Shown: piece by piece, positions 2,415-59,944 of the stretch | Layout of the letters: each line of letters begins with the position of its first letter | How positions within the stretch are numbered: position 1 is the first letter of the stretch | Source of the DNA: a virus | IMG/VR virus record: IMGVR_UViG_3300048793_000029 | Location: 1-64,000 of that record | Reading direction: 5' to 3' (one strand) | DNA: 64,000 bases | Notes under the pieces: model-generated | The model's input: the letters and a program-made list of their open reading frames with translations, nothing else | Told to the model about the DNA's origin: nothing | The model's database searches: none | Made by a program: the position numbers and the translations under genes

Positions 2415-3344
2415 CTATGCGTTCCTGTATTTTTCATCTCGTAGCATCTGATACCCTTTGACCAGCTCCTCAATCCCCTGATCCAGCGACCGCGTCGCCC
2501 GCCAGCCGGTGGCCTCGATCTTGGCGTTGCTGACCACGTAGTCGCGCTTGTCCGGGTCTTCCCCCACGTCGGCGCCGACGAAGAACAGCTCCGGCACATG
2601 CTGCTTTATCTTGACCACTAGCTCGCGCTTGCTGATGTTGGCCGAGCTGAGGCCGACGTTGTAGACCTGGCCCCTCATGACGTCGAACTTATTCAATGCG
2701 TGCGTGAAGGCGTCCGCCACGTCGCGGACGTGGACGTAGTTGCGCCGGAAATGCTCCTCAAACAGCACGATAAAGCGGTCGCGCACGGCGCGGTAGACGA
2801 AGTCATTAACAAGGAGATCCAGCCTCATCCGCGGGCTCATGCCGAATACGGTGGCCAACCGCAAGCTGATGGAGTTCTGGCGGGACATGGCTGTTTCTTC
2901 GGCTTGGACCTTCAACTTGCCGTAAAGAGATACTGGCTTCAACGGAGACTCCTCGGTGCATTCGCCGTCAGTGCCTATACCGTACCCACTGTTCGTTACT
3001 GGAATAACGAGGAGTTGAGAGTCTCCCATCAAATGGCACAACGTTCTGACGGCGACGTAATTTGTCGAATAAGCCGCCGCATAGTCAGCGTCACAGGCCG
3101 GAGCACCTACGATGGCAGCCAACGGCAATACGGCATCAGCATGGAGGAGTAACGGCATCAGTGTTGCCTCGCTCCTCGCATCCCCCCGCACAATCTCCAG
3201 TTTGATATTGTGGCACAGGTGCGCCAGCGAGCACTGACCGTACATAAAGTTGTCTAGCACAGTGACGCGGCGGCCTTTGGCCAGCAACTGCTCGACGAGG
3301 ATGCTGCCAATATAGCCGGCGCCGCCGGTCACTAATATATTCAT
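2415..3344 (-). CDS. NAD-dependent nucleotide-sugar epimerase/dehydratase/reductase (extended SDR)
   Basis: MNILVTGGAGYIGS Rossmann motif, YGKLK (YxxxK), RNYVHVRDVA; start moved to 3344. Confidence 0.92.
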   Translation of the reverse strand: MNILVTGGAGYIGSILVEQLLAKGRRVTVLDNFMYGQCSLAHLCHNIKLEIVRGDARSEATLMPLLLHADAVLPLAAIVGAPACDADYAAAYSTNYVAVRTLCHLMGDSQLLVIPVTNSGYGIGTDGECTEESPLKPVSLYGKLKVQAEETAMSRQNSISLRLATVFGMSPRMRLDLLVNDFVYRAVRDRFIVLFEEHFRRNYVHVRDVADAFTHALNKFDVMRGQVYNVGLSSANISKRELVVKIKQHVPELFFVGADVGEDPDKRDYVVSNAKIEATGWRATRSLDQGIEELVKGYQMLRDEKYRNA

Positions 3345-3541
3345 GCCACCACCCATACCAGCCCGATGGCAGTCATCGCCAATGCCAGCCAGGCGATGCG
3401 GTTGGCCACCATCTCCTTGGACCTCTCGGTCATACCAAGAGCGGCTGCTATGGACGAGCACTCGTCGCCGCAGCGGCACGTCAGATGGAAGTCGTCCATC
3501 TCTAGCATCGTCTCGTACTTGTGAATGTGAAATGGGCTCAT
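3341..3541 (-). CDS. Small membrane protein
   Basis: C-terminal hydrophobic helix; ATGA-type overlaps with neighbours. Confidence 0.5.
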   Translation of the reverse strand: MSPFHIHKYETMLEMDDFHLTCRCGDECSSIAAALGMTERSKEMVANRIAWLALAMTAIGLVWVVA

Positions 3542-3660
3542 CGGAACCACCATCCGACGTGGCCAATGTGAAAGCCGAAGACCAGGGTAGCCACCGCAAG
3601 CATGACAACGATCACCACGCAGTGGTTGACGAAGTAGATAAGTCGCTCTGCGTTTTTCAT
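3538..3660 (-). CDS. 40-aa hydrophobic peptide
   Basis: Manual translation MKNAERLIYFVNHCVVIVVMLAVATLVFGFHIGHVGWWFR; fills the gap with ATGA overlaps on both sides. Confidence 0.5.
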   Translation of the reverse strand: MKNAERLIYFVNHCVVIVVMLAVATLVFGFHIGHVGWWFR

Positions 3661-4781
3661 TCCAGTACCTCCTTCATGACGCCTACCGCCAGTTCGATTA
3701 GCTCAGGGATGGGGTAGGGCGCATTTCCAATGAACAAGCCGGCGCGGTGGATGCGATCGGCGTTGGGCGTTAACTGGTCGGCCCAGGGCTTGCCGATTGG
3801 GTGTTTGGTAAAACTGCCTCCGGTTGGCAAGCGGCAATCAACTCCGTTGGCACGAAGTGCGGCTACAAGCGGCGAGCGTTGCGCAGGGTCATTCAAAGAG
3901 AACGACATGCCGAATGGATTCGCCGTTCCTTCCATGACTTGCATAGTTATCGGCAGGCCCTTGGTAACCTCCACAAACGTATTCCAATTCTGGCGACGCG
4001 CCGTTCGGTACAGTGGCAACTTCTTGAGCTGCTCGCGCTGCACTGCGGAGTTTATCTCCAGCGGTCGCACGTTGAAGGCGGAACTAATTGCGAAGCAGTA
4101 TTCGTCCTCGAACTTAGTGGCTTTCTGCACGTCACGGGTCCAGCCGTGGCTGCGAATCATCTTGCACAAGCGATTAATTTCCACGTCGTCGGTAAGAATA
4201 GCACCGCCTTCTATTCCAGAAATTTGATGCGACATGAACATCGACAACGTACTAATGTCGGCCAACGTTCCGATCTTGTGACCGCTTTCGGTAACGGCTC
4301 CGATCGACTCACAAGCGTCCTCGATGCAGTAACTGCCATTTCTTCTCGCGTCGAGAAGCCATTCATCGATATGAGATGGATTGCCGAGAATGGGGCAGCT
4401 AACAACTAGCCTTGCTTGCTGGTAGTTGTACGGCAGAGCGTTCCACGTCTCGTCTATGTCGGCGACAATCAAGTTGAGACCGTAGAGAATCAGCGGCGAC
4501 CAAGTGGTGGCCCAAGCGATAGATGGAACGACGGCAAGGTCACCACGCTTCAGAGGATTGTTCTGGATATGAAATAGCGCAGCAACGGCGATCAAGTTGG
4601 CGCTCGATCCTGAATTTGTGGCCACGCAGAAGTTGCGGCCGTGAAAGGTGGCAAGTTCCGATTCCAGCGCTTCGGTCTCGGGGCCGTAGGTGAACCAGCC
4701 ACTTGCAACGACACGCTGGATGGCTTCTTGTTCTTCCGTTGCCCATGCGGTGAAGCCTGTGGGATATTTATAAACCGTCAT
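3657..4781 (-). CDS. DegT/DnrJ-fold PLP enzyme, ColD/E1-like NDP-4-keto-6-deoxysugar 3-dehydratase
   Basis: NSGSSANL, IEDACESIG, SMFMSHQISGIEGG (His at the usual Schiff-base Lys, as in ColD/E1), HGWTR, FNVRPLE. Confidence 0.8.
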   Translation of the reverse strand: MTVYKYPTGFTAWATEEQEAIQRVVASGWFTYGPETEALESELATFHGRNFCVATNSGSSANLIAVAALFHIQNNPLKRGDLAVVPSIAWATTWSPLILYGLNLIVADIDETWNALPYNYQQARLVVSCPILGNPSHIDEWLLDARRNGSYCIEDACESIGAVTESGHKIGTLADISTLSMFMSHQISGIEGGAILTDDVEINRLCKMIRSHGWTRDVQKATKFEDEYCFAISSAFNVRPLEINSAVQREQLKKLPLYRTARRQNWNTFVEVTKGLPITMQVMEGTANPFGMSFSLNDPAQRSPLVAALRANGVDCRLPTGGSFTKHPIGKPWADQLTPNADRIHRAGLFIGNAPYPIPELIELAVGVMKEVLE

Positions 4782-4782
4782 C

Positions 4783-5160
4783 TCACTTCCCTACTTGCCT
4801 AAGCGCATCCTGGGCCATGAACGCTGCGCGTATCATGCAGCTATCCCGTCCGGTCTCGGGCCACTCCGGGTGGTCCCAGCACCACACCTTCCACGCTGGC
4901 CGGCAGGCGCTGGCAAACAACATGAAAGTGGATTCGAGATCCTCGTCATGCGAGGAATAAGAGCCGCTTCGGCCTTGAGTTAGTAGGCACGTTTGAAGTT
5001 CTCTCTCAAACTTCTGCGATATCAAAAATCTTTCGCCTTGCGACATTGCAGAGACTTGTGCCGTCACGGGAACCACGGGACCTGCCGTCAGGAACATGCC
5101 AGTTAAGGCGATCAGGACTGTCACCGCGATGATCAGAAGATTTTTTAGGTAGCTGGTCAT
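4783..5160 (-). CDS. Hypothetical protein with N-terminal signal/TM segment
   Basis: Hydrophobic N-terminus LLIIAVTVLIALTGMF; AGGAG upstream of ATG 5160. Confidence 0.55.
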   Translation of the reverse strand: MTSYLKNLLIIAVTVLIALTGMFLTAGPVVPVTAQVSAMSQGERFLISQKFERELQTCLLTQGRSGSYSSHDEDLESTFMLFASACRPAWKVWCWDHPEWPETGRDSCMIRAAFMAQDALRQVGK

Positions 5161-5168
5161 AATCGCTC

Positions 5169-7007
5169 CTACGTCACCACATTCGGCATAGTCGGCTTCA
5201 GCCAACCTTCGACCGGCTCGATGGTCATGTTCTTGCGAAACTCGGCGCGCGGCAGGTACGGGTAAAGATCCTCAATTGGCGTTTTCCATCCGACCACGCG
5301 CGGCTCATAGGTGTGATAGTCGTAGCACTCGACGATACAGATCATCGACTTGGAGTGCGCCAGCAGGACGTTGATCGCCGCGCCCATATCCTTCAGCACG
5401 CCGTCATGCTGCCCTCCAATTCTGATTACGTCCATCCCATAGGCTTGCGCCACTCGCTCGAAGTCCGGCGGGTTATAGCCCTTCGGCCCGCAGGCCTCGG
5501 CGCGACCCTCGAAGTTAGTCTCCTGGAACGCCTTGGTGATGCCGTAGATGCGATTATCGAGGATGATGGTCTTGACCACCGCGCCGTAATTGATCAGCGT
5601 CTGGATCTCCTGGAGGTTCATATTAAAGCCGCCATCGCCGATGACGCAGATGATAGTCTTGGTCGGGTCGGCGAACCAGGCTCCCAGTGCGCCGGCAAAC
5701 GAGAAGCCCATCGGGCTGTTGCCATTGTTGGTAATGAAGCGCTGGCCGCGCTTGGTCTCGAAGGCGTGGGACAGCACCACAATGTTGCCGCCGCAGTCGC
5801 CAACCAGAATTGTTTCTGGACTGCACTTTTCGGATAGCGTTTCGACGAAGGTATAGAAGTCGCAGCCGGCCCTAACCTTCTTGGCGGGCCGCGCCGGGTA
5901 CTGCCTCTGCCAGCCGCGGCATTGCGCCAGCCAATCGGCGTGGCGTGGCTGGTAGCCCTCCAACGCGGCAGCCAGCCTCGCCAGGTAAAGCCGAACGTCG
6001 CAGCGGGTACTGACGTCGAACGGCACCTGCTGCAGCTCACGCCGCGTCAGCGCCGGGTCGATGTCGACGAGGTACTTCTTGGCTGCACGCGCCCAGGTCT
6101 CCGGCGCACCGCCGGTTATCCGGCCCGATATTCTTGAGCCCACGGCCAATAAGAGATCTGAATTTTGCAGGCCGAAGTTGCGCCCTGCGCCGCCGTAGGT
6201 GCCGATACGGCCGCCGTACCAAGGCAGGTCGGAGGTGACGACGTCGAGGGCATTCCAAGTCGGGTAGCAAGGGATCTGCAGCAGCCCGGCCACTTCGAGG
6301 AATAGGTCGACCGCGCCGGCCGAGCGGACGCCGCCGCCAACCAGCAGCACGGGCCGCTCGCTTTGTTCGAGGTCGATGACGAAGTCACTCACGTCGCGGT
6401 CTATCTCGGCTACCGACGCGGAGGCATTGAGCAGATCGCGGTTCTCGGCATCACGAATATCAAAGCTTTCAAGTGTGTCAGGATCAATCATGGCCTGCTG
6501 GACGTCGATCGGCAGGTCGAGCAGCACCGGGCCGGGGCGGCCGTGCTGACAGAGGAATAAAGCTCGCTCCAGCTCGTAGCGAATGCGGGCTGGATCGGTG
6601 ACCATTGTGGCCGACTTGGTCACCGGCTTGAACATGGAAATCACATCGGCCTCTTGAAAGCCAATCTGGCGAAGCGAAGGATCTGGCCGCAGGAACCGAG
6701 TCTTGATCTGGCCGGTGATGAAGATGGCCGGTACGCTGTCGTAGAAGCAGTTACCAGCTGGAGTTATTAAATTCATAGCGCCGGGACCGGAAGTCGCGAT
6801 CGCCAGCCCCGGTACGCCCCTTATTTTAGAAAACCCCTCGGCAGCAAAACCAGCAGCTTGTTCAACCATACAAGCAACGTAGGAGATCTGGTTTGTCCTT
6901 GTAAAAGCGTCTACCAAATCACCGTTGGCCGATCCGTACACGAGAAAGGCGTGACTGATGCCGTGGGCAGCAAGCGTGTTGATTATATAGTCTGCAACTT
7001 TGATCAT
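5169..7007 (-). CDS. Thiamine-diphosphate-dependent enzyme (acetolactate synthase-like/YerE-like)
   Basis: EQAAGFAAEG (catalytic Glu), TSGPGAMN, GFQE, GRPGPVLLDLP, GDGGF...N ThDP motif. Confidence 0.9.
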   Translation of the reverse strand: MIKVADYIINTLAAHGISHAFLVYGSANGDLVDAFTRTNQISYVACMVEQAAGFAAEGFSKIRGVPGLAIATSGPGAMNLITPAGNCFYDSVPAIFITGQIKTRFLRPDPSLRQIGFQEADVISMFKPVTKSATMVTDPARIRYELERALFLCQHGRPGPVLLDLPIDVQQAMIDPDTLESFDIRDAENRDLLNASASVAEIDRDVSDFVIDLEQSERPVLLVGGGVRSAGAVDLFLEVAGLLQIPCYPTWNALDVVTSDLPWYGGRIGTYGGAGRNFGLQNSDLLLAVGSRISGRITGGAPETWARAAKKYLVDIDPALTRRELQQVPFDVSTRCDVRLYLARLAAALEGYQPRHADWLAQCRGWQRQYPARPAKKVRAGCDFYTFVETLSEKCSPETILVGDCGGNIVVLSHAFETKRGQRFITNNGNSPMGFSFAGALGAWFADPTKTIICVIGDGGFNMNLQEIQTLINYGAVVKTIILDNRIYGITKAFQETNFEGRAEACGPKGYNPPDFERVAQAYGMDVIRIGGQHDGVLKDMGAAINVLLAHSKSMICIVECYDYHTYEPRVVGWKTPIEDLYPYLPRAEFRKNMTIEPVEGWLKPTMPNVVT

Positions 7008-7012
7008 GTTTT

Positions 7013-7068
7013 GCCTGCTTTGCTAAGCTCCGCTGCGCTGCATTTGGCTTCGCTGTGCTATGCCTGCT
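7013..7068 (-). repeat. Single pentamer-coded unit (AGCAGGC + 9 x NN-AGY), putative guide RNA
   Basis: Minus strand: agc aggc AT agc AC agc GA agc CA aat GC agc GC agc GG agc TT agc AA agc aggc. Confidence 0.85.
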
Positions 7069-7511
7069 TAGGCCTCCATCCTTGCCTCTCCCTTTTTCTT
7101 ATCCTGTTGACGCCTGATCTTGGCAACTTCCGACCAGATTGGCTTAAGGGCCTTGAGGCGCTCGTATTTCGTTTCGATGCGGTGCAGCTCATTCAAGGCA
7201 TCGGCCATCATAATGTCCTTGAGCGACTTGTCCCGAAGGACTTCCTCGATGTCACGGTAGCCGCCGCCTTCCTTTGGCCGGTCCAAGCTGAGCGAGACAA
7301 ACTTCCGTTCACCGTCCTTGAAAGTAATGTGAACGGCGATCAGTTGCCTTACCTGCCAAAGCCGATATTCGTGGCCAGCCTTGCTGTTATTCCATTCCAG
7401 CCGCTTGTACAGGTCCGAATCTGGATGCGCCTTGGACCACTCAAGAACTTCTTCAGCAATCAGAAGTTCTTTGCCGTTCTTTATCTCTAGTAATTCACTC
7501 TCGATGCTCAT
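7068..7511 (-). CDS. Partner protein of the Cas7-like/pentamer-array module
   Basis: 147-aa ORF with AAGGAG RBS, lying between repeat units; motif HPDSDLYKRLEWNNSKAGHEYRLWQVRQLI. Confidence 0.75.
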   Translation of the reverse strand: MSIESELLEIKNGKELLIAEEVLEWSKAHPDSDLYKRLEWNNSKAGHEYRLWQVRQLIAVHITFKDGERKFVSLSLDRPKEGGGYRDIEEVLRDKSLKDIMMADALNELHRIETKYERLKALKPIWSEVAKIRRQQDKKKGEARMEA

Positions 7512-7530
7512 TTTGTAACTCCTTTGGTTT

Positions 7531-7817
7531 GCCCGCTTTGGTTTGCTTTGCTGAACTGTGTTCAGCTATGCTGGGATTGGCTACGCCTGCTTTGGTTTGC
7601 TGCACTTTGCTGAACTGATCTGTGCTGAGCTACGCTACGCCTGCTTTGCCGCGCTTCTCAATGCTTGACTTTGCTTGGCTACACTCGGTTTTGCTATGCC
7701 TGCTTTGCTTTGCCGCACTGGGCTCATCTGAGCTGTGAGGCGCTCTGCTGGGCTGAGCTTAGCCTGCTTTGCTGCACTTGGCTGGGCCACGCTTCGATAA
7801 GCTGTGCTACGCCTGCT
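7531..7817 (-). repeat. Array of five pentamer-coded units (NN-AGY)n delimited by AGCAGGC; putative non-coding guide RNA array
   Basis: Delimiter gcctgct on + at 7585, 7639, 7698, 7762, 7811 and degenerate gcccgct at 7531; spacings 54, 54, 59, 64, 49 are all 4+5n. Confidence 0.9.
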
Positions 7818-8482
7818 CAGTCCATACTCACCTTGAATGTTCCCTTTCCTGTTCCGCCACTCATTTTGCTCAAAGGCCTTCCGGCCCCGATACCAACCTG
7901 CCAGCCGGCGCGGGCCAGAAGATTGACAATATCCTGGGCCTTGAAGACATCGTCGTCCCACTCGATCTCAAATTTGGCTGACCACTTCTCGAAAATCGCT
8001 CGCGCTGCCAAATCGGTTGACGCCATGCCAACCTTGACCCGCTCGATATGCATCCTCGGCTCGCCTTCGATCTTGATCAGCGGTTCTAGGTTCTCCGCAT
8101 CGAGCCCTTGAGCGACGATGAAGATGCACATCTTGGCACGGACCATGTCCATCTCAGTCAGGCGGCAAGCGTCGATCATAGCATTGCGCAGCGCGGTGGC
8201 TGGAATACCGGGCCACCCTTCCTTAGATATGTGCATTGAGCCACGATACACCTTCTCGAAATCCTTCGGCGCCTTTGCTTTGCGGGTCTTCTTGGCCGCC
8301 GAACCTTCCTTCTGCGTTGCGAGCATCTTGTCGCGGTTCTCGGAACTGAACCGGTTCTGCAAATAGGGAGCAGTACCGGTGATCTTTACTCTAGCCGTTG
8401 CCATCTTTGGCGGCGTGATGGTGACTTTCGTTTCCGTAACAGGGGCCGCGCTAACGGCCTTCAGTTGCATTACTTTTGACAT
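7817..8482 (-). CDS. Stand-alone Cas7/RAMP-like RNA-binding protein
   Basis: RAMP-like signature: ARVKITGTAPYL, GIPATALRNAMIDA (cf. IPgsslKGa), C-terminal Gly-rich loop GIGAGRP...GGTGKGTFKV; directly upstream of the repeat array. Confidence 0.7.
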   Translation of the reverse strand: MSKVMQLKAVSAAPVTETKVTITPPKMATARVKITGTAPYLQNRFSSENRDKMLATQKEGSAAKKTRKAKAPKDFEKVYRGSMHISKEGWPGIPATALRNAMIDACRLTEMDMVRAKMCIFIVAQGLDAENLEPLIKIEGEPRMHIERVKVGMASTDLAARAIFEKWSAKFEIEWDDDVFKAQDIVNLLARAGWQVGIGAGRPLSKMSGGTGKGTFKVSMD

Positions 8483-8516
8483 CTTTTAGTCCTCTCTGCT
8501 GTGGTTTGTTAAGTCT

Positions 8517-10046
8517 TCACGTTACATCTTCCAACAAATTCCGCTTCAACTTATATGACGTCATTCCCTTCACATGCTTCCGCGCCTCCTGCCCGAACCG
8601 CTGAGCAATCGAATCAAGGTAGCGGGGGCTAGTGAAGTACGCCTGGAACGCTTGATCGCGAGCGCGGAGAACAGCGGCGGGGGACAAGTCGCCGGTGACG
8701 TAGGGGATGGTGTGCTCGTTGTGCATGCTGAAGGCCTCCCACGGCGGTGGCTTCCAGCCGGCGGCGACCGCGTCGTCGTAGAGCTTGCTACCGGGGAACG
8801 CTTGCGTGGGATAAAAGTTCGCCCACGCGGTGTTGAGTTCTTGGGCCAGCGCAAGGGTCGCCTCCATAGTCTCTGGCGTCTCGCCGGGTAGGCCGAAGAT
8901 GTAGTTGGCGCCGATGTGGATGCCGGCCGCCTCGATCTTGTGGACCACGGCCTTGATCTGCTCTGACGACATGCTCTTGTCGGCGCCGTCGCGGACTTCG
9001 GCGCTACCGGACTCGATGCCCAAGGCAAACCATTTAAAGCCGGCGGCGCGGAACAGTCCTAGCTCGCCGACCTCGAACTTGTAGTCGGGGCGGCAGTAGC
9101 ACCAGCTGTTGATCTTCTTGCCCAGGCCCGACGCAATCAGCCGCTCGCAAATCGCCTTGGTGTGGCGGCGGTTCAAGACGAACAGTTCATCGACGAACTT
9201 GAAGGTTTCGACACCGTGGTCGCGGTTGAGCATCACCATCTCGTCAATCACAGCTTGCGGGTCGCGCATGCGGTAGCGGTTGGTGTGTTGAAAGACATTT
9301 ATCATACAGAAACTACAAGTGAACGCGCATCCAAGTGAAGTGCAGATGGCGGCGTAGGGGCTGCGCTTTGATTGGTCGTCGAACCGCTGCCAGTTGTGCG
9401 AGCGGTACTTGGATGGAGGCGGCAGCAGGTGCCAGGCGCGGCCGTGCAGGTCCTTGTTGATGTCGAGCAGCGGGGCGCGGTGGTTTTGCTTAACAACATC
9501 ATCCAGGGTTTTGGCACGACCAGCTTCTAGAGCTTCTGTACTGCACCATACCAGTCCAGGAACTTCCCACAGCGGGTCGTTGTTGAGCAGCCCCATGATG
9601 GTCAGCGGCCCCTCGCCGTCGATCACGAAGTCTACTGGCTCCTCAACCAAAGTCTGCACCGGCAGGGCCGACGGGTGGTTGCCCATCATGACGATCTTCG
9701 GCTGCCGGTCGAGGTCGGCGCCTATGTCGGACGTTCGGTAGCTCTGCCGGATGGCCTCCGCCGCCAGCCTCGCCCCCGGCATGGCCTGGGTGCTGGCGCT
9801 GGGCTGATGGCCCGACACCACGATAGCAGCGATGCGAGGGTTGAGGGCCGCGACCCGTTCGCCTATCTGGCCGGGGCTCAGCCCCTCGCACTCGGCATCG
9901 ATGATCTTGACGTCGACGCCGCGGTCAAGCAGGTAGCCTGCTATCAAGCGGGGCCACAACGGCTGCTCACGGCTAACCAGCGTATCGCCGAGCTGGCCGT
10001 AGATGCCGTGGACGCCGTTGGGGTGGATCAGGACTACGTCAACCAT
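8517..10046 (-). CDS. B12-binding radical SAM enzyme (class B methyltransferase-like)
   Basis: CAFTCSFC (CxxxCxxC), GNHPSALP cobalamin-domain motif, FVDELF, LGIESGS, YIFGLPGET; start moved to ATG 10046. Confidence 0.9.
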   Translation of the reverse strand: MVDVVLIHPNGVHGIYGQLGDTLVSREQPLWPRLIAGYLLDRGVDVKIIDAECEGLSPGQIGERVAALNPRIAAIVVSGHQPSASTQAMPGARLAAEAIRQSYRTSDIGADLDRQPKIVMMGNHPSALPVQTLVEEPVDFVIDGEGPLTIMGLLNNDPLWEVPGLVWCSTEALEAGRAKTLDDVVKQNHRAPLLDINKDLHGRAWHLLPPPSKYRSHNWQRFDDQSKRSPYAAICTSLGCAFTCSFCMINVFQHTNRYRMRDPQAVIDEMVMLNRDHGVETFKFVDELFVLNRRHTKAICERLIASGLGKKINSWCYCRPDYKFEVGELGLFRAAGFKWFALGIESGSAEVRDGADKSMSSEQIKAVVHKIEAAGIHIGANYIFGLPGETPETMEATLALAQELNTAWANFYPTQAFPGSKLYDDAVAAGWKPPPWEAFSMHNEHTIPYVTGDLSPAAVLRARDQAFQAYFTSPRYLDSIAQRFGQEARKHVKGMTSYKLKRNLLEDVT

Positions 10047-10276
10047 CACCAACTCCTCGCGGCCAAGCCGCTGGCAAACCCCACCACCTGCTTCACGCCA
10101 CCACCTCGCAACCCTACCTGATACCTCAGCTCCTCGGCCAGCCGCGTGCCGTAGTAGCCGGCGCACTTGAGGCTGGCCTTGAGCACCGCTTCCGAACCGC
10201 CGGCGGCATATTCCCGGCAAGCTCGCTCGTAGCGCCAGCGGTGGACCTCGGCGGCATCGGGGTTGGAGCCTAGCAT
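10046..10276 (-). CDS. Hypothetical protein
   Basis: 76-aa ORF tightly packed between neighbours. Confidence 0.5.
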   Translation of the reverse strand: MLGSNPDAAEVHRWRYERACREYAAGGSEAVLKASLKCAGYYGTRLAEELRYQVGLRGGGVKQVVGFASGLAARSW

Positions 10277-10278
10277 TT

Positions 10279-10617
10279 TTAGTCCTCAACCCGCCGCAGA
10301 CCCTCGGGGGTATATTCTTGCTGGCGGCGAACGTGGTAGATGCCCTTGTCAAACATAATCGGCTCGTGCTGGTCAAACTCGCGCAGGTGCTCAAGCGCGG
10401 TTGGCTCGTCAACTACCAACAAACAATCCATTATCGAGTCCGGCAACCGATACATTGTGACACTCTCGGCCTTCATGACGTGGTGATGGCCGGTTTCCGA
10501 GTGGGTCACGATCACACGGCCAGCTTCGGCCTTTACAGCAACAACCGCTTCCGGCAACGCATTGATGCGGCGGATGTAGATGTCGCCCTGTGCGCAGTAG
10601 TCTTTGAAGGTTCTCAT
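10279..10617 (-). CDS. Conserved phage protein, His-rich cupin-like
   Basis: QGDI...HSETGHHH...LEH...HEPI...RRQQEY pattern, recalled as the usual neighbour of DUF6745 genes. Confidence 0.65.
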   Translation of the reverse strand: MRTFKDYCAQGDIYIRRINALPEAVVAVKAEAGRVIVTHSETGHHHVMKAESVTMYRLPDSIMDCLLVVDEPTALEHLREFDQHEPIMFDKGIYHVRRQQEYTPEGLRRVED

Positions 10618-22911: not shown

Positions 22912-24122
22912 TCGGCCTCCGGTGCTGAAAGGAGTTTGATGTCGGGTAAGGAAGCCCCGATCAGGCCCTGGAGATCGCCGTACATGCCTGACGTGCTTGA
23001 GATAACTTGCATCACTTGCTTCTCCCTCTTAGACCAACGCCGCTCGGCAACACGCCTTTCTTCGGCGATATCGACTTGCATCTCGGTGAAGGCTTCGACG
23101 ATTGCTTCGACACGTTGGCGAAAGCCGGGGCCGGAGAGATAGTCATAGATGACTTCCATCTTCTCCTTCTTGCCCACCGAGGAGGCGCGAACTTGGGCAA
23201 CTTCCATGAGCTGAAGACGACAGGCAGCGGCGAGGGCCATGGCGTGGTCTAGTGACACGATCCATACTCCTTCGACATGAGCGAAGGTCTTCACAGCGTC
23301 AGGCATTGTTGTGCTGACGATGATGGCGATGTCCGCCTTAGCCGTTCGCTGGTCAGACTTTAGCTTTGGCAGCCATTCGTCTTTCCACGCTTTGGTCCGC
23401 TTGATCTCCCAGATGATGGAGCCCGCCTGAGCCCCGGAGCGATCGAGGACGCAATGCAAGACGTCGGCGCCAGTGACGCCTTTAGGCACGGGCTCGATGC
23501 GATCGAGGGGAAACGTAGCGGCGAGGGTTTTCTCAATCTCTAGCTCTAGTACTTCGCCTTGCGTTTGTTGCGAGCCTTGCTCGAGACGACGCTGTAAGGT
23601 TTCTACCGTAGTGAGAGCATCACTAAGACGCTTGTCCTTCTCGGCGTCTTTGAGGCGGCGCTCATTATCCAGGCGATCAGTGATTTCACTCGTTAGATCG
23701 GCGCGAGCAGTGTCAAGCTTACGCGCAACCTCTAGCTCGAGGGACTGCTCGCGCTCCTCCAACTCACGCGCACGGTTACGCAACGCAAGCTCGGAGGCTT
23801 GCGCCTCGCGTCGTTGTTTGTCAGCCGACGCCGCTTGTTGACGCAAGGACTCTACCTCGGCGGACACCGCAGATCGAGCTGCCTCCTCAGCAGTCGCCGT
23901 AGCTTGCCTAGTGGCCACGGCTACACGATCTGCGATTGTTCGCTCAGCTACGAGCTCGGACTTTTTAAGGCGTTGCTCACGGGCAGTGATGTCTTCTTGC
24001 TGGGTGAGTACTTCAGCACGCATCTCTTCGCGTGTTCGTTCAGCGATCTGATGCGAAAGTAGATCGGTGAGAGGAATGATATGTCCGCAGTTAGGACACT
24101 TTAAATTGTCAAGTGTGCTCAT
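22908..24122 (-). CDS. DUF2130-family coiled-coil protein
   Basis: CPNC N-terminus, long coiled coil, GSQQTQGEVLE...FPLDRIEPVPKGVTGAD...IWEIKRTKAW. Confidence 0.8.
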   Translation of the reverse strand: MSTLDNLKCPNCGHIIPLTDLLSHQIAERTREEMRAEVLTQQEDITAREQRLKKSELVAERTIADRVAVATRQATATAEEAARSAVSAEVESLRQQAASADKQRREAQASELALRNRARELEEREQSLELEVARKLDTARADLTSEITDRLDNERRLKDAEKDKRLSDALTTVETLQRRLEQGSQQTQGEVLELEIEKTLAATFPLDRIEPVPKGVTGADVLHCVLDRSGAQAGSIIWEIKRTKAWKDEWLPKLKSDQRTAKADIAIIVSTTMPDAVKTFAHVEGVWIVSLDHAMALAAACRLQLMEVAQVRASSVGKKEKMEVIYDYLSGPGFRQRVEAIVEAFTEMQVDIAEERRVAERRWSKREKQVMQVISSTSGMYGDLQGLIGASLPDIKLLSAPEAE

Positions 24123-38433: not shown

Positions 38434-39006
38434 ATGAAAAAGATAATTACTGCCATCGTGCTAGCTTGTGCTTGGCTGTTGGCGCCGCTGCCGGCTAATG
38501 CTGTCGTTGTAGTGTCATCCTGCTCATCGATAACGGCGGTGACGGGCTTCAGCGGTGACTTGTATATTGATACGTCAGGTAAGCTGTGTATCAATGCAAG
38601 TACCACTTCGTTGCCCCCCAACGCCGCCCAGGAAACCGGCGGCAATCTCGCGGCGATCTTGTCGGCTATTCAATCACCGCTTGCTGGTGTTTCCGAATCG
38701 CATAGCGCAGCGGCGGAATCATCGCGGGTTGCCAAAAACTCCGCTGGTAACGTAATCAGCATATCCGGCTCTGCCGCTGCCGGTTCCTACATCATGCTTT
38801 TCGATCTTACTGCCGCACCTAGCAATGGTGGTGTGACACCGAAGAAATGCTGGGGACCGATGGCATCGAGTGGACCGTTTTCGTTTTCATGGGGTGTCGG
38901 GCCAACCCTTACGATGGCGACCGGGATAACGGTCGTCTCTAGCTCAACCGGCTGCTTCACGCAGACATTAACCAACGCCAACTTCATCAGCGTGGAGTAT
39001 CAGTAA
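38434..39006 (+). CDS. Signal-peptide-bearing beta-rich protein
   Basis: MKKIITAIVLACAWLLAPLPANA signal; Ser/Thr-rich. Confidence 0.7.
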   Translation: MKKIITAIVLACAWLLAPLPANAVVVVSSCSSITAVTGFSGDLYIDTSGKLCINASTTSLPPNAAQETGGNLAAILSAIQSPLAGVSESHSAAAESSRVAKNSAGNVISISGSAAAGSYIMLFDLTAAPSNGGVTPKKCWGPMASSGPFSFSWGVGPTLTMATGITVVSSSTGCFTQTLTNANFISVEYQ

Positions 39007-39851
39007 TGAAAAAGATTTTAGCTCTTATCGCTGGGCTGCTGCTTGTTTCGGCTGCTTACGCGCAGAACTCATCCTCCACTCCTAAATATGCGCCGAATAG
39101 CGTTGTCTTTACTTACAACGATGGCGTTCATTGTACTAATTCTGTTTGTACCTTTCCTATTCCGGCCAACGTCAGTATTATTTATATCGATGGCGTTGGC
39201 GCTGGCGGCCCTGGCGGTGGCGGTCAGGTTACTTCCGGCGCTGGTGGAGGTGGTGGTGGCTCAGGCGAAGAGGTTACTGGACTCCCGCTGCCGGTAACTC
39301 CTGGGGCAACTCTCACTATCACCATCCCAGTAACAACGTCAGGAGGTGCTATTGCTGGTGTTGGCACAGACCCGGCTGCGCTCACCATAACTTCATCCCC
39401 AAGTCTAGCCGTTCCTTTTCCATCACTCGGTGCTGGCATCCACGGATTAGCCGGGGCTGCTACTGTTGGCGGGACTGGCGGCGCGGGCGGTGGCCCTGGC
39501 GGTGTCGCTGGCGGCGCTGCAAACGTAGCTGGTGGCAATGCATCTAATACCGGACGGTCAACTTATTACAAGACAGGAAACGGCGGCGGCGGCGGCGGCA
39601 GCACAGCATCAACTCCAGGCTTTGGCGGAACCTCTGGCGCTTACATTACACTCGGCGCTGGGGCATTAGGAAATGCTGGCGGCGGCCTAGGAGGCAATGC
39701 TCAATTTGGTCCCGGCGGCGCAGGCGGCGGCGGCACTACTCCCTCGGTAGGCTTGGCTCCCGCAAGCGGGTTCGGCGGTGGCGGTGGTGGTGGTGGCCAG
39801 AATAATGCTGGCGGGGCCGGAGGTCCGGCTTTTGTCCAGATCAGGTATTAA
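39006..39851 (+). CDS. Signal-peptide-bearing glycine-rich protein
   Basis: MKKILALIAGLLLVSAAYA; GAGGPGGGG...GGGGGG glycine-rich domain. Confidence 0.75.
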   Translation: MKKILALIAGLLLVSAAYAQNSSSTPKYAPNSVVFTYNDGVHCTNSVCTFPIPANVSIIYIDGVGAGGPGGGGQVTSGAGGGGGGSGEEVTGLPLPVTPGATLTITIPVTTSGGAIAGVGTDPAALTITSSPSLAVPFPSLGAGIHGLAGAATVGGTGGAGGGPGGVAGGAANVAGGNASNTGRSTYYKTGNGGGGGGSTASTPGFGGTSGAYITLGAGALGNAGGGLGGNAQFGPGGAGGGGTTPSVGLAPASGFGGGGGGGGQNNAGGAGGPAFVQIRY

Positions 39852-39853
39852 GC

Positions 39854-41221
39854 ATGATCTGGCGCGTTCTAATTATCTTGCTCTGTGCCGGTATTGTTTC
39901 CGGTTGGCGAGTTGGCAGCAATCTTTCCGTTGCTACGTTCTCGCCCGACGCGACTTCGTTTCTTAATCCTGAACGCGGTTGGTATGGCGACATAGGGGAC
40001 GGCAGTACGCCATGCACCGCAGCGACTAATTTTTCCAGTTATCGTGGCAACAACAAGGGAATGTCTCGCGTCTATGTTCGATTGGACGCTTATGTTTCTA
40101 GCCCGTTGCCTCAATCAATTCTGGATAACCTGACCGGCTGCTTTGCCCAAATCAGGTCAGCCGGAATTAAAGTTGAACCTAGATTTACTTATAATTTCGG
40201 CGGCGGTGCGCCGTGTACCGACGCAACGCTAACGCAGATATTGGCTCACATAGCCCAGCTCACTCCGGTGTTGCAGGCCAACATCGACGTGATTGCGTTT
40301 CTTCACGCCGGGTTCATTGGCTGTTGGGGCCAGTGGTGGGGATCAGCAAATACCCTGAATACGAACCAAAGCGCAACGCAGCAAATTCTCGCCGCCGAAT
40401 TGGCGATTGATCCTAATTTAGTGGTGATGATCCCATATCCAGACAGCGTGCGATATGCTCTCGGTGCAGCAAACATTCAAACGCGCGTCGGCATCGCTAA
40501 TGATTGTTTTCAATCAACCAACAACTCAGATGACGATGAATTTGGCAGATTGAACGGTGTTGACCAAACCGGCCAGCCTGGATATGCCGCGCAAATAACA
40601 ACTGACCGCACCTACATGCAAACGCTCGGCGGCATTACAAACGCCAACGGCGGCGAGGGTCAGCCGAGTTGCCCTTATACGGCGGTCTATAGCGATTGCG
40701 CTGCGTCCATTGCGGCAATGCAGACCTATTCAATTTCATACTTTGCTGTTTTTGCATCGTTACATCCTTCGACATGGGCGTCTGATTCTGGAAATTGTGC
40801 CGCTACGATGCAAGATTCGATGGGCTACCGCCTAGAATTGCAGCGCGTGCAATATCCAGCCAGCATAAGCAAAGGCAGCCTATTCAGTTTCAATCTTGCG
40901 CTGGTCAATCGAGGCTACGCAGGCCCGATCAATCAGCACCCGATCAATGCGGTGCTGTCGGACGGCACGCATACTTATGTGCTGTCATCGTCAATCGACT
41001 GGCGGACGTGGCGTCCTGGATCGGGAATATCCGCATGGGGCCAAGCGACGGTGCCGAGCGGTGCCGTGTCCGGCACCTACTCGCTCTATCTATGGATACC
41101 GGACAGCCACGCCAGTCTGCAAAGTAATCCACTCTATGACGTTCGCCTCGCCAACTCAGGCGTATGGGACGGAACCACCGGCTACAACAAGATTTGCGAT
41201 ACCTGCGTGACGGTGCATTGA
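39854..41221 (+). CDS. DUF4874/DUF4832-like putative glycoside hydrolase
   Basis: NPERGWY, PRFTY, AGFIGCWGQW, NDCF, GGE, MGYRL...NRGYA. Confidence 0.75.
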   Translation: MIWRVLIILLCAGIVSGWRVGSNLSVATFSPDATSFLNPERGWYGDIGDGSTPCTAATNFSSYRGNNKGMSRVYVRLDAYVSSPLPQSILDNLTGCFAQIRSAGIKVEPRFTYNFGGGAPCTDATLTQILAHIAQLTPVLQANIDVIAFLHAGFIGCWGQWWGSANTLNTNQSATQQILAAELAIDPNLVVMIPYPDSVRYALGAANIQTRVGIANDCFQSTNNSDDDEFGRLNGVDQTGQPGYAAQITTDRTYMQTLGGITNANGGEGQPSCPYTAVYSDCAASIAAMQTYSISYFAVFASLHPSTWASDSGNCAATMQDSMGYRLELQRVQYPASISKGSLFSFNLALVNRGYAGPINQHPINAVLSDGTHTYVLSSSIDWRTWRPGSGISAWGQATVPSGAVSGTYSLYLWIPDSHASLQSNPLYDVRLANSGVWDGTTGYNKICDTCVTVH

Positions 41222-58507: not shown

Positions 58508-59944
58508 ATGACGAACGTGCCGCCACCGACCTTCGGCCCACGAGGGTTCATTGCCCCTCTAGAGTCGCAGATACTCGCCGGCTTTCAGGCCGACATCAAC
58601 GCTGCTTTCGGTGGCAATCTGAATACAGCACTCAATACGCCGCAGGGTCAGTTGGCCTCGTCGATGGCTGCCGTTACTGGCAACGCTATGGACACTTTCG
58701 CGCTAATGGCCAACTCTGTTGATCCGGCCTACGCCACCGGCCGCTACCAGGACGGCATCGCTCGCATCTACTTCATTGAGCGAATACCTTCGTCGTCCAC
58801 TGTGGTGCTGGCAACTTGCTCAGGGTTGACGGGAACGCTGATCCCAGTAGGTTCGCTGGCGCAAGCCGCTGACGGCAATACCTACACTAGTACCGCCGAC
58901 GGCATTATTGGCGTCAATGGTACGGTCGATATATCGTTTGCCTGCAACGTGCAGGGCAGTATCTCTTGTCCCGCAAACAGTCTGACGACCATCTACCAAA
59001 CCGTGCTGGGTTGGGATTCCATCACCAACGCCTCGGATGGCGTCATCGGCAACGACGTGGAGAACCGCGCCGACTTCGAGAACCGCCGCTTCCAGTCGGT
59101 GGCGCACAACTCACTAGGTTTCCTGCCGTCGGTGTTGGGTGCGGTACTGTCGGTGCCAAACGTAGTTGACGCCTACGTGACGGAGAACGCCACAGGCTCC
59201 CCTATCATCGTTACCGGCGTCACCATCGCAGCTCGTTCGATCTACGTGTCGGCGGCCGGTGGGTTGGCGGCCGATATAGCGCAGGCGCTGTGGCAGAAGA
59301 AGGCCCCCGGCTGTGGTTACAACGGCAACACCACGGTCACGGTATACGACAACCAATCCGGCTACGACCCACCATACCCAGCCTACCCAGTATCGTTTGA
59401 GACGCCAGACCCGCTCGACGTCTTATTCTCTGTAAACATCGTCAACGGCGTGCTGGTGCCGTCAAATGCGGCGACTCAAATACAAAGTGCCATCATCGCA
59501 GCCTTCGCTGGCGAGGACGGCGGCCAGCGCGCTCGCATCGGTTCGATCATCTACGCCTCCAGGTTCTACGCTTCGGTGGCGGCATTAGGCCCGTGGGCGC
59601 AGATCGTTGCCATTGACATCGGTTCAGCCAACACGCCGGCTGCTTCCATCGTCGGCAGCATTAGCGGTCTTACGCTGACGGTGACCAGTTGCACCGCAGC
59701 GACCATCGCCAATAATCAATTCTTATCCGGCAGCGCTGGCGGCAGCAGCGTGGCTATCGGTACCCAGATTGTCGGGCAGGTATCCGGGTCGACCGGCGGC
59801 ACCGGCACCTATACGGTGAGCATTACGCAAATCGTGCCGTCGATGGCGATGGCTACAGCGACCGCCAACCAGAACTCGGTTGCGGTACAGATCAATCAGG
59901 TACCGACAGTGTCGGCTCTCGATATCGTGGTTAACACGTCCTAG
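58508..59944 (+). CDS. Baseplate J-like protein
   Basis: TPQGQLA, GRYQDGIARIYFIER, ENRADFENRR, KKAPGC. Confidence 0.87.
   Translation: MTNVPPPTFGPRGFIAPLESQILAGFQADINAAFGGNLNTALNTPQGQLASSMAAVTGNAMDTFALMANSVDPAYATGRYQDGIARIYFIERIPSSSTVVLATCSGLTGTLIPVGSLAQAADGNTYTSTADGIIGVNGTVDISFACNVQGSISCPANSLTTIYQTVLGWDSITNASDGVIGNDVENRADFENRRFQSVAHNSLGFLPSVLGAVLSVPNVVDAYVTENATGSPIIVTGVTIAARSIYVSAAGGLAADIAQALWQKKAPGCGYNGNTTVTVYDNQSGYDPPYPAYPVSFETPDPLDVLFSVNIVNGVLVPSNAATQIQSAIIAAFAGEDGGQRARIGSIIYASRFYASVAALGPWAQIVAIDIGSANTPAASIVGSISGLTLTVTSCTAATIANNQFLSGSAGGSSVAIGTQIVGQVSGSTGGTGTYTVSITQIVPSMAMATATANQNSVAVQINQVPTVSALDIVVNTS

What the first reader, a model, noticed from the sequence alone, without database searches (positions are those of the whole stretch)
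6846..7068. Sixth unit's gapped code matches the catalytic-site codons of the adjacent ThDP-enzyme gene
Unit 6 (7013-7068) reads AT AC GA CA GC GC GG TT (AA). The ThDP gene at 6869-6846 reads ATg GTt GAa CAa GCt GCt GGt TTt (M-V-E-Q-A-A-G-F, containing the conserved catalytic Glu). With every third (wobble) base skipped, 7 of 8 dinucleotides match, 6 of them consecutively; the only mismatch is AC vs GT. A rough uniform-composition estimate gives about 0.004 chance hits per unit in this window (about 0.02 for six units), and the site is only about 150 bp away. Inference: the guide targets the homologous allele (e.g. M-T-E-Q-A-A-G-F) of a competing relative while the self copy escapes, as with homing endonucleases, or it autoregulates the sugar operon. 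I found no matches for units 1-5 by eye, but that scan was not exhaustive.
Basis: partly seen in the sequence, partly recalled or inferred. Interest (0 to 1): 0.88.

Follow-up and report, generated by a model that had tools for sequence, protein, structure and literature searches.

The report
Phage VIPR guide aimed at sister phage
The repeat units belong to a phage-borne VIPR RNA-guided silencing system, and the sixth guide matches perfectly a sugar-enzyme gene in a closely related phage that lacks the system, while the phage's own copy differs at one codon.

Summary
Unit 6 (7068-7013, minus strand) reads AT AC GA CA GC GC GG TT (AA). ThDP codons 47-54 (6869-6847) match 7 of 8 dinucleotides when the wobble base is skipped.

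On its own this is weak. 4.7% of shuffled guides reach 14/16 on this 72-kb contig, and 36-57% reach 14/18.

The module is a known kind, a VIPR system (three 2026 bioRxiv preprints):
- The 221-aa protein matches the SUSP1 Vipr chain in the PDB and has a Cas7-like predicted fold.
- The units are vrRNAs with an AGC/NN rather than GGY/NN scaffold.

The decisive result comes from a complete sister phage, G001 (71,920 bp; structural genes 94-99% identical). It lacks the whole cassette and carries M-T-E-Q-A-A-G-F at the homologous site. That is a perfect 8/8 match, found only under the 1-nt skip, 138 nt from the cassette junction. Shuffled guides achieve this in 4-57 of 200,000 trials.

By the published 80% criterion the sister site is a target (16/18) and the self site is not (14/18).

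Expression, binding and escape of the self copy are untested. Guides 1-5 have no identified target.

The parts
7817..8482 (-). vipr gene (221 aa, P0001): RAMP/Cas7-like guide-binding protein
   Evidence: phmmer against PDB chain 36pp_D 'SUSP1 Vipr protein' gives E=3.3e-5 over residues 30-203; a profile of 44 homologues gives E=1e-5. The AlphaFold2 model has pLDDT 89.4. Foldseek top hits are Cmr4/Csm3/type VII Cas7 backbone subunits, with 41 matches at E<=0.001. PHROG 4652. The glycine-rich C-terminal loop is invariant (G197 G199 G201 R202 G210 G214).
7531..7817 (-). array of vrRNA units 1-5: AGCAGGC boundary followed by (NN-AGC)n with a 5-nt period; unit lengths 49, 64, 59, 54, 54
   Evidence: This is the only such array on the contig besides unit 6. 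The same architecture lies downstream of vipr-vap in 8 IMG/VR loci and, with a GGC scaffold, in Cyanophage Cy-LDV1. No unit folds better than shuffles (z from -1.69 to +0.55). No Rfam family matches.
7068..7511 (-). vap-like accessory gene (147 aa, P0002)
   Evidence: A homologue follows vipr, directly or after a short intervening ORF, in the related loci. PHROG 15946. 19 homologues, all unnamed. The family is viral only. The model has pLDDT 85: helices, a beta hairpin and a long C-terminal helix. There is no significant fold match; the best are the winged-helix proteins MecI and FOXO1 at E about 0.7.
7013..7068 (-). vrRNA unit 6: guide code AT AC GA CA GC GC GG TT plus a constant AA. It ends 5 nt before the ThDP start codon.
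   Evidence: The terminal AA is present in 6 of 6 units here and in 22 of 44 parsed units of the family.
6847..6869 (-). self near-cognate site, ThDP codons 47-54 (M-V-E-Q-A-A-G-F): 14/16 guide bases, mismatch at NN 2 (GT vs AC)
5169..7007 (-). ThDP-dependent acetolactate-synthase-like enzyme gene of the phage sugar-modification operon; it carries the site
   Evidence: Pfam TPP_enzyme_N, M and C domains. NCBIfam hits fall below every equivalog cut-off. 90% amino-acid identity to the G001 homologue.
8517..10412 (-). B12-binding radical SAM gene: the upstream flank of the cassette
   Evidence: Pfam hits. G000 8530-10046 aligns to G001 38473-36966, and G000 4669-7008 aligns to G001 41001-38661. 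So G000 7009-8529 (the cassette) stands in place of 187 nt in G001.

Best explanation
The window comes from a 72-kb tailed phage that carries a VIPR (Viral Interference Programmable Repeat) cassette between two genes of a sugar-modification operon. The order is vipr, five vrRNA units, a vap-like gene, then a sixth vrRNA unit.

By homology with the characterised SUSP1 and P. fulva systems, I infer the following. Vipr protomers polymerise along each vrRNA, one per 5-nt repeat. They hold the constant triplet (AGC here, GGY in SUSP1) and expose the two variable bases. Those bases pair with double-stranded DNA while skipping every third target base. The result is an R-loop that blocks transcription.

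The cognate target of vrRNA 6 is codons 47-54 of the ThDP gene as it stands in the cassette-free sister phage G001 (M-T-E-Q-A-A-G-F, 8 of 8 NN). In a mixed infection the cassette-bearing phage would silence the sister's ThDP gene and, by polarity, the sugar genes behind it. Its own copy, 138 nt downstream of the cassette, has Val (GTT) instead of Thr (ACC) at codon 48, which costs two guide bases.

Shown here: family membership by sequence and fold, the array anatomy, the perfect match, absence of the cassette from the sister phage, and the statistics.

Inferred: transcription and processing of the units, binding, silencing, co-infection, and weaker binding to the self copy.
For: Vipr identity:
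- PDB hit to the SUSP1 Vipr chain.
- Cas7-family predicted fold.
- Residues the structural paper names for G2 and Y3 of the scaffold (R138, R179) align with invariant R161 and R202.

Array:
- Six 49-64-nt units of a constant triplet plus variable dinucleotide.
- The architecture is conserved next to vipr-vap in 8 IMG/VR loci and in Cy-LDV1.
- The element is phage-borne: DNA polymerase, terminase, portal, sheath and baseplate are on the contig.

Rule: the published 1-nt skip with the wobble base skipped, natural targets called at 80% or more NN match, and either DNA strand usable.

Target:
- G001:38800-38822 matches with 0 mismatches; the reversed-pattern control gives 0 hits.
- In G001, skip 1 gives 16/16, against 14, 12 and 12 for skips 0, 2 and 3.
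- Six of the 8 skipped wobble bases differ between the two phages, while 14 of the 16 read bases are the same.

Chance of a perfect site in G001:
- 57 of 200,000 NN-order shuffles. About 10 of these are expected to be the unshuffled order itself.
- 13 of 200,000 random guides of pooled NN composition.
- 4 of 200,000 base shuffles.

On the looser published metric (16/18), 19 and 20 of 5000 shuffles do as well.

Database-wide: 17 exact matches in all of IMG/VR (2.9 million contigs by the tool's description). Only the G001 match lies in a ThDP homologue.

G001 is the sister phage. Its structural genes are 94.4-98.7% identical in nucleotides, and tblastn and a periodicity scan found no vipr and no AGC/GGC array. 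The cassette is an indel exactly between the rSAM and ThDP genes. The target lies 138 nt from that junction, within about 0.4% of the genome.

By the published threshold the sister site passes (88.9%) and the self site fails (77.8%).

A functional SUSP1 guide (vrRNA4) reads only six units, so 8 NN is ample.

Weak support for sympatry: small contigs identical to G001 occur in 2 of 4 peat metagenome runs that also hold the cassette.
Against: - Only one of six guides has an identified target. Guides 1-5 reach at most 79% in G001.
- Only one close relative carries the gene, so the link between cassette presence and codon 48 rests on a single pair.
- The Val/Thr difference needs no selection. 17 of the first 100 residues differ between the two proteins, so one change within 8 codons is expected from drift.
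- The self site keeps six consecutive matched NN on the 3' side, where R-loop formation starts in SUSP1. It scores 87.5% if the constant AA is left out, so it might still be bound.
- Whether this clade (AGC scaffold, no pseudoknot tail) obeys the same rule rests on the match itself.
- No RNA data exist.
- The read laying contigs do not cover the target site.
Confidence: 0.75

Rival explanations
1. Autoregulation. vrRNA 6 acts in cis on the phage's own ThDP gene. The 14/16 near-cognate site, 144 nt downstream, is bound weakly and tunes or times expression of the sugar operon. The perfect match in G001 then only reflects the ancestral allele.
For: - The guide and the site are adjacent and in one transcription direction.
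- The self site has six consecutive matched NN at the 3' side. In SUSP1, filament and R-loop growth run 3' to 5', and a six-unit guide is functional there.
- The self site scores 87.5% if the constant AA is not counted.
Against: - A regulator would be expected to keep a perfect operator. Here the perfect site sits in the genome that has no Vipr.
- With all NN counted, the self site is below the published 80% cut-off (77.8%).
- The preprint reports no self-targeting hit at 80% or more in the P. fulva, type III and type V sets.
- A 14/16 or 14/18 hit on this contig is not beyond chance.
Confidence: 0.15
2. Coincidence. Neither the self match nor the sister-phage match has any function. Codon-like dinucleotides (GC, GC, GG, GA, CA) simply make such hits common in coding DNA.
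For: - The self match alone is unremarkable.
- Unit 6 is rich in common codon starts, which raises its null about 4-fold over random guides (57 vs 13 of 200,000).
- 16 unrelated exact hits exist in IMG/VR.
- Guides 1-5 have no target.
Against: - The per-guide chance of a perfect site in G001 is at most about 3e-4, so at most about 2e-3 for six guides.
- The hit lies in the one sister genome, at the position homologous to the gene flanking the cassette.
- It is in codon register with the wobble base skipped.
- It appears only under the published skip rule.
Confidence: 0.04
3. The units are not guides at all. They would be a TRAP-like or iteron-like array of protein-binding triplets that regulates translation or replication of the neighbouring genes.
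For: My first lead, from recall: triplets spaced by 2 nt resemble the binding sites of TRAP. The arrays end just before ribosome-binding sites.
Against: The adjacent protein is a Vipr/Cas7-type RAMP, not a TRAP-like ring. The published structures explain the 3+2 repeat as scaffold plus guide. The variable dinucleotides of unit 6 spell a real gene site.
Confidence: 0.02

Closest known systems
Type II VIPR of Escherichia phage SUSP1 and of the Pseudomonas fulva prophage (bioRxiv 10.64898/2026.04.26.720920, 10.64898/2026.04.26.720927, 10.64898/2026.10.15.759431)
   Same: - Phage-borne two-gene locus: a RAMP-like vipr plus a small accessory gene.
- Flanking arrays of about 9-12 five-nucleotide repeats, each a constant triplet plus a variable dinucleotide.
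- One guide separated from the main array by a gene.
- The target lies in a coding sequence of a competing mobile element, with the skipped base on the wobble position.
- Self score is lower than the rival's score.
   Different: - The scaffold is AGC (position 1 relaxed) rather than GGY.
- Units abut through a 7-nt AGCAGGC junction. Their lengths are all 4 mod 5, and there is no invariant pseudoknot tail.
- Sequence similarity of Vipr is remote (E about 1e-5).
- The accessory protein shows no detectable similarity to anything named.
- The target is a metabolic (sugar-modification) gene of a near-identical sister phage, right beside the cassette. In the preprints the targets are a satellite recombinase, lysis-lysogeny regulators or a rival's vipr.
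- Which of the seven published types this clade belongs to could not be checked, because the supplements are closed.
Non-canonical VIPR arrays (GAC/NN, CAC/NN, WGT/NN, TGH/NN) found by entropy periodicity (bioRxiv 10.64898/2026.10.21.760802; passages only)
   Same: 5-nt period, a fixed trinucleotide other than GGY, and a Vipr-like fold next door.
   Different: AGC/NN is not among the motifs named in the passages I saw. Its Fig. S10 and its tables were not visible to me.
Class 1 CRISPR backbone (Cas7/Csm3/Cmr4 on crRNA)
   Same: Same RRM, thumb and G-loop fold by Foldseek. Both form a helical protein filament on a guide with periodic non-pairing positions.
   Different: No cas genes, no CRISPR repeats and no adaptation module. 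The period is 5 with 3 of 5 guide bases hidden, against period 6 with 1 of 6 hidden. The system is phage-encoded.
Marker exclusion by homing and free-standing endonucleases of T-even phages (recalled, not searched)
   Same: A cassette-borne function aimed at the cassette-free allele of the neighbouring gene in a co-infecting relative, with a resistant polymorphism linked to the cassette.
   Different: No nuclease domain was found in vipr or in the vap-like protein. The known VIPR type II action is binding and silencing, not cleavage. No gene conversion is shown.

Membership tests
VIPR system | A Vipr protein: a minimal RAMP with RRM core, thumb and glycine-rich loop, related to the characterised Viprs | tested here: met
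   PDB 36pp_D SUSP1 Vipr at E=3.3e-5 (single sequence) and 1e-5 (profile). Cas7-family fold: 41 Foldseek matches at E<=0.001, the top being Cmr4/Csm3. The G-loop GIGAGRP...GGTGKG is invariant across 44 homologues.
VIPR system | vrRNA locus: at least 4 tandem 5-nt units of a conserved trinucleotide alternating with a hypervariable NN, in the intergenic DNA flanking vipr | tested here: met
   Six units of 9-12 repeats. The scaffold triplet is AGC in 34 of 55 positions, with A at position 1 in 50 of 55. The NN vary within and between loci. The consensus is AGC, not the canonical GGY; the preprint allows 'a related consensus' (YNNNG).
VIPR system | An adjacent vipr-accessory (vap) gene | tested here: inconclusive
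   A conserved 147-aa partner accompanies vipr in the window and in 8 related loci. Homology to the published vap1-6 cannot be tested, because no sequences are available. The fold is only weakly winged-helix-like (E about 0.7).
VIPR system | Encoded mainly by viruses or proviruses | tested here: met
   The contig encodes DNA polymerase, primase, terminase, portal, protease, sheath, tape measure and baseplate. Relatives are IMG/VR contigs, Cy-LDV1 and actinobacteriophages.
VIPR system | A natural target under the 1-nt skip rule at 80% or more NN match, with the skipped base on the wobble position, in a competing mobile element, and no self hit at 80% or more | tested here: met
   Unit 6 against G001: 16/16 variable bases, 16/18 in all, in frame, and only at skip 1. 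The self site scores 14/18 = 77.8%. This is met for 1 of 6 guides only.
VIPR system | vrRNAs are transcribed, processed and co-purify with Vipr; the RNP binds dsDNA and represses transcription | not testable with these tools
   No RNA run is listed for the locus. Biochemistry is needed.
VIPR type II (SUSP1 clade) | GGY scaffold and an invariant 3' tail with a pseudoknot capping each vrRNA | tested here: not met
   The scaffold is AGC. Units are joined by a 7-nt AGCAGGC junction only. No unit folds better than shuffles. The residues that read G1 in SUSP1 (H17, D177) align with N43 and A200 here. So this is a VIPR, but not of the SUSP1 clade.
TRAP-like RNA-binding attenuation system (considered) | A ring-forming TRAP-fold protein that binds 9-11 (G/U)AG triplets spaced by 2-3 nt in a leader | tested here: not met
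   The neighbouring proteins have a RAMP fold and a helical, weakly winged-helix-like fold, with no TRAP match. The definition of TRAP is recalled.

The most novel reading that the evidence does not exclude
The cassette behaves as a selfish, linked exclusion element. It carries a guide against the cassette-free allele of its own flanking gene, and the resistant codon sits 138 nt away, so recombination rarely separates the two.

In mixed infections the Vipr R-loop triplex beside the empty site would silence the rival's operon. It could also stall replication there and stimulate recombination that copies the cassette, together with the resistant allele, into the rival genome. That would be RNA-guided, nuclease-free homing or marker exclusion.

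The evidence does not exclude this:
- The target lies within about 0.4% of the genome next to the junction.
- The ThDP gene is visibly mosaic between the two phages: about 100% identity over nt 1141-1500, against 63-88% before that.
Probability: 0.15. Interest if true: 0.8.

Novelty: new member of a known kind. Interest (0 to 1): 0.5.

Why it matters
VIPR was described only in 2026, and its natural targets are worked out for enterobacterial and Pseudomonas systems. This is a clean natural case from an uncultured peat or permafrost phage, with three useful features:
- The guide, its perfect target and a near-cognate self site are all in hand.
- Target and self site differ by one codon.
- The two genomes are otherwise nearly identical.

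That makes a ready-made test of how many NN mismatches protect self from non-self. It also asks whether VIPR cassettes are maintained by excluding their cassette-free siblings. It extends the rule to an AGC scaffold, and it suggests which G-loop residue sets the first scaffold base.

For the scan, it shows that a gapped-code match which looks marginal within one genome can be resolved by looking at the sister genome.

Tried and rejected
- Coding potential of the units: rejected by inspection of the sequence, where TAG triplets recur within the units. I ran no frame-by-frame check.
- TRAP-like or iteron reading: rejected after the Vipr hit.
- Rfam: only one sub-threshold match, RefA5 at 20.8 bits against a gathering score of 91.
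- blastn of the locus against the phage records: no match.

Targets of guides 1-5:
- Exact 1-nt-skip patterns of guides 2 and 3 (20 specified bases) in IMG/VR: 0 hits each.
- Guide 1 (16 bases): 5 hits, none in a homologue of a gene of this phage at the site.
- Guides 1-4 against 50 records of portal-related or VIPR-bearing phages: guides 2 and 3 at up to 3 mismatches gave 0 of 50. Guide 4 at up to 1 mismatch gave 0 of 50. Guide 1 at up to 1 mismatch gave 2 of 50. One of those two is in frame in a baseplate gene and is kept only as a lead.
- The 50 records were chosen from 87 loci (79 portal loci plus 8 VIPR loci), mostly preferring the longer contigs. The other 37 were not searched.
- Guide 5 (14 bases) was not scanned in any collection.
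- Guide 2 in the bacterial genome collection: 2 exact hits in unrelated bacteria, not in codon register. I estimate about 1 hit by chance under uniform composition, so I read these as chance.

Other negative or inconclusive results:
- ThDP homologues in JGI metagenomes: 12 loci, none closer than 57%, none with ACN.
- A skip-3 near-hit of guide 5 in G001 (17/20 at 23561) has no AGC scaffold and is chance.
- The terminator-like hairpin over the self site (6875-6856) is not above shuffles: 1 found, mean 2.6.
- Sequencing runs: no RNA holder is listed.
- Read laying on the G001 junction: runs X2 and X5 laid nothing. The target site itself was not covered in any run.
- The vap fold search and the atlas search gave no named relative.
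- Supplements of all the papers are closed. Data S3/S4, Figs S16-S18 of 10.64898/2026.04.26.720920 and Fig. S10 of 10.64898/2026.10.21.760802 may already list this clade, its type, staggered arrays or an AGC motif.
- I ran no paper search on homing endonucleases or on TRAP. Both comparisons are recalled.
Full report
**What is in the sequence.**

On the minus strand the region reads as follows:
- a B12-binding radical SAM gene (8517-10412);
- a 221-aa gene (7817-8482);
- five repeat units (7817-7531);
- a 147-aa gene (7068-7511);
- a sixth unit (7068-7013);
- five bases later, the start of a ThDP-dependent acetolactate-synthase-like gene (5169-7007).

Each unit begins with AGCAGGC and continues as (NN-AGC)n. 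Unit lengths are 49, 64, 59, 54, 54 and 49 nt, all equal to 4 modulo 5. No other such array exists on the 72,249-bp contig. The contig is a tailed phage with DNA polymerase, primase-helicase, terminase, portal, protease, sheath, tape measure and baseplate.

**The observation.**

Unit 6 reads AT AC GA CA GC GC GG TT AA. ThDP codons 47-54 read ATG GTT GAA CAA GCT GCT GGT TTT (M-V-E-Q-A-A-G-F).

I scanned all six guides against both strands of the contig with 0-3 skipped bases. This is the single best 1-nt-skip hit. No guide reaches 14/16 under skip 0 or 2, and skip 3 only finds the units themselves.

The hit is not significant by itself:
- 47 of 1000 shuffled guides reach 14/16.
- With the final AA counted (14/18), 364 of 1000 base shuffles and 565 of 1000 NN-order shuffles do as well.
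- At the level of whole dinucleotides, 97 of 3000 order shuffles and 86 of 3000 composition-matched random guides reach 7 of 9.
It is about eight times too low for this codon-like guide.

**What the module is.**

The 221-aa protein has no Pfam or NCBIfam family. It matches PHROG 4652. In the PDB it matches only chain 36pp_D, 'SUSP1 Vipr protein', at E=3.3e-5 as a single sequence and 1e-5 as a profile. Its AlphaFold2 model (pLDDT 89.4) matches Cmr4, Csm3, type VII Cas7 and Cas7-11, with 41 matches at E<=0.001.

Three 2026 preprints describe VIPR systems:
- 10.64898/2026.04.26.720920: I read the Results and three methods sections.
- 10.64898/2026.04.26.720927: I read the Results.
- 10.64898/2026.10.15.759431: I read three sections.

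According to these preprints:
- A phage-encoded minimal RAMP (Vipr) polymerises on vrRNAs made of GGY/NN repeats.
- The protein hides GGY and presents NN.
- The NN pair with double-stranded DNA while skipping one target base per unit.
- The skipped base usually falls on the codon wobble position.
- Binding represses transcription.
- Natural targets lie in competing phages and satellites.

The present locus differs in two ways. Its scaffold is AGC; position 1 is A in 50 of 55 triplets. It also lacks the pseudoknot tail; the units do not fold better than shuffles.

The same vipr, partner gene and array arrangement occurs in 8 IMG/VR loci at 80-87% Vipr identity. It occurs with a GGC scaffold in Cyanophage Cy-LDV1 at 42% identity.

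The 147-aa partner belongs to a virus-only family without a named fold. Its model is helical, with a hairpin and a long C-terminal helix. The best matches are winged-helix repressors at E about 0.7. I treat it as a vap-like gene of unknown action. No nuclease signature was found.

**The decisive comparison.**

A search of IMG/VR with the ThDP protein gave three loci.

The closest (90% identity) lies on a complete 71,920-bp phage genome with terminal repeats, G001. It reads ATG ACC GAG CAG GCC GCG GGC TTT, that is M-T-E-Q-A-A-G-F. All eight variable dinucleotides of unit 6 match, although six of the eight wobble bases differ from the window's copy. In G001 the score is 16/16 at skip 1, against 14, 12 and 12 at skips 0, 2 and 3.

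G001 is a sister of the window's phage:
- The structural half is 94.4-98.7% identical in nucleotides.
- The sugar operon is 70-90% identical.
- The replication module (G000 10,047-32,746) has no match of 300 nt or more.

G001 has no vipr by tblastn and no AGC/GGC periodic array. The rSAM and ThDP genes are collinear in the two genomes. G000 7009-8529, the whole cassette, stands where G001 has 187 nt containing a small membrane-protein ORF. The perfect target therefore lies 138 nt from the cassette junction, in the genome that lacks the cassette.

**Statistics for the sister-phage match.**

- A perfect 8-NN site in G001 arises for 57 of 200,000 NN-order shuffles of unit 6. About 10 of these are expected to be the unshuffled order.
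- It arises for 13 of 200,000 random guides of the pooled NN composition, and for 4 of 200,000 base shuffles.
- On the looser published metric, with the constant AA included (16/18), 20 of 5000 base shuffles and 19 of 5000 order shuffles do as well.
- In all of IMG/VR the exact pattern occurs in 17 stretches. Sixteen are in unrelated proteins, and the one in a ThDP homologue is G001.
- Among the 14 homologous loci whose alignment covers the site, the residue before the Glu is His in 12, Thr only in G001 and Val only in the window. A 15th locus, L042, aligns only from residue 313.

Its position beside the junction, about 0.4% of the genome, is an independent oddity.

**How it most likely works, and what is uncertain.**

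By the preprint's 80% criterion the G001 site is a target (88.9%) and the self site is not (77.8%). I therefore read vrRNA 6 as a weapon against the cassette-free sister phage. The self match is its homologous shadow.

Four cautions apply:
1. One amino-acid change in eight codons is what drift predicts, since 17 of the first 100 residues differ. Selection for escape is not shown.
2. The self site keeps six consecutive matched NN on the 3' side. R-loop growth starts there in SUSP1, and a six-unit guide works there. Some self-binding, and hence autoregulation, cannot be excluded.
3. Only one of six guides has a target. Guides 1-5 score at most 79% in G001 and gave nothing convincing elsewhere.
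4. Transcription, processing and binding are untested. No RNA run is listed.

Small contigs identical to G001 occur in two of four peat metagenome runs that also hold the cassette. This is weak support for co-occurrence, and they do not cover the target site.

**Comparison with what is known, and novelty.**

This is a member of the VIPR kind, but not of the SUSP1 type II clade: the GGY scaffold and the pseudoknot tail were tested and not met. Non-GGY scaffolds are already reported.

The junction AGCAGGC can be read as AGCAG and GGCNN sharing one G. That would fit the 'staggered arrays with 1-nt overlap' of the preprint's Fig. S18 legend, but I could not see the figure.

What is new is the particular case:
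- a guide whose perfect target is the flanking gene of its own cassette, as it stands in a cassette-free sister genome;
- a one-codon difference in the self copy;
- an environmental phage as the carrier.

The preprints already show vrRNAs aimed at relatives, with self scores below rival scores. So this is a new member with an instructive configuration, not a new mechanism.

The boldest reading still open is that such linkage makes the cassette a selfish exclusion or homing element without a nuclease. I give that 0.15.

**A side observation.**

In the HMMER alignment to SUSP1 Vipr, the residues that read G2 and Y3 of GGY (R138, R179) align with invariant R161 and R202. Those that read G1 (H17, D177) align with N43 and A200.

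Cy-LDV1 uses GGC, with G at position 1 in 46 of 48 triplets, and has Glu at the D177 position. All seven AGC-type loci have Ala there. An acidic G-loop residue may therefore specify G at scaffold position 1. This rests on three clades and one remote alignment.

Noticed in passing
window 7817-8482 (residues N43, R161, A200, R202); L001 3983-4609: Scaffold base 1 co-varies with a G-loop residue. SUSP1 has D177 with GGY. Cy-LDV1 has GIGEGRP with GGC (G at position 1 in 46 of 48 triplets). The window and 6 related loci have GIGAGRP with AGC and a relaxed position 1. The residues that contact G2 and Y3 are conserved.
   Followed up: partly
L001 4610-4815 and 5416-5575 (Cyanophage Cy-LDV1, BK059895.1): A cultured-host cyanophage carries a VIPR-like locus annotated only as hypothetical proteins. 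It consists of vipr (g34), a GGCNN array, g33, a second GGCNN array, then the excisionase, all within the early region. Mycobacterium and Gordonia phages also encode Vipr homologues at 27-33% identity.
   Followed up: partly
L003 unit 3 (about 3020-3070) against portal loci L060, L076, L094, L098; also G000 33449 (-) and G001 15636: A 7-NN guide of a related VIPR phage matches a site in the portal genes of this phage group. It scores 13/14 in 4 portal loci, 12/14 in 7 more portal loci, and 12/14 in the portal genes of G000 and G001 themselves. The hits in homologous genes are not independent, and 7 NN is short, so this is a lead only.
   Followed up: no
window 58508-59944; L127 (G008:7710-7732): Window guide 1 matches 15/16, in frame, a baseplate-J-like gene of a distantly related provirus (V-T-F-E-V-P-P-A). 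The phage's own homologous site reads V-S-F-E-T-P-D-P. No perfect match in such a gene was found in IMG/VR.
   Followed up: partly
window 5169-7007 against G001 38662-40500: The ThDP gene is mosaic between the two phages. Identity is 63-88% over the first 1.1 kb, then 95-100% over nt 1141-1500, then mixed again. This indicates recombination inside the gene.
   Followed up: no
window 6864-6866 (codon 48): The residue before the conserved Glu is His in 12 of 14 homologous loci, but Val here and Thr in G001. Both phage enzymes depart from the usual H-E-Q motif.
   Followed up: no
window 10047-32746: The replication and early module of this phage has no nucleotide match of 300 nt or more in the sister phage G001, although the structural genes are 94-99% identical. 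The relatives are modular mosaics.
   Followed up: no
window 2415-10412: The phage carries a sugar-nucleotide modification operon on the minus strand: NAD-dependent epimerase/dehydratase, DegT-type aminotransferase, a 140-aa ORF, the ThDP enzyme and a B12/radical SAM enzyme. Its role (DNA or surface glycan modification) is unknown.
   Followed up: no
window 6800-8500: The cassette sequence is held by contigs of peat and permafrost metagenome runs from 8 studies, two of which may be the source of this DNA. No RNA run is listed.
   Followed up: partly
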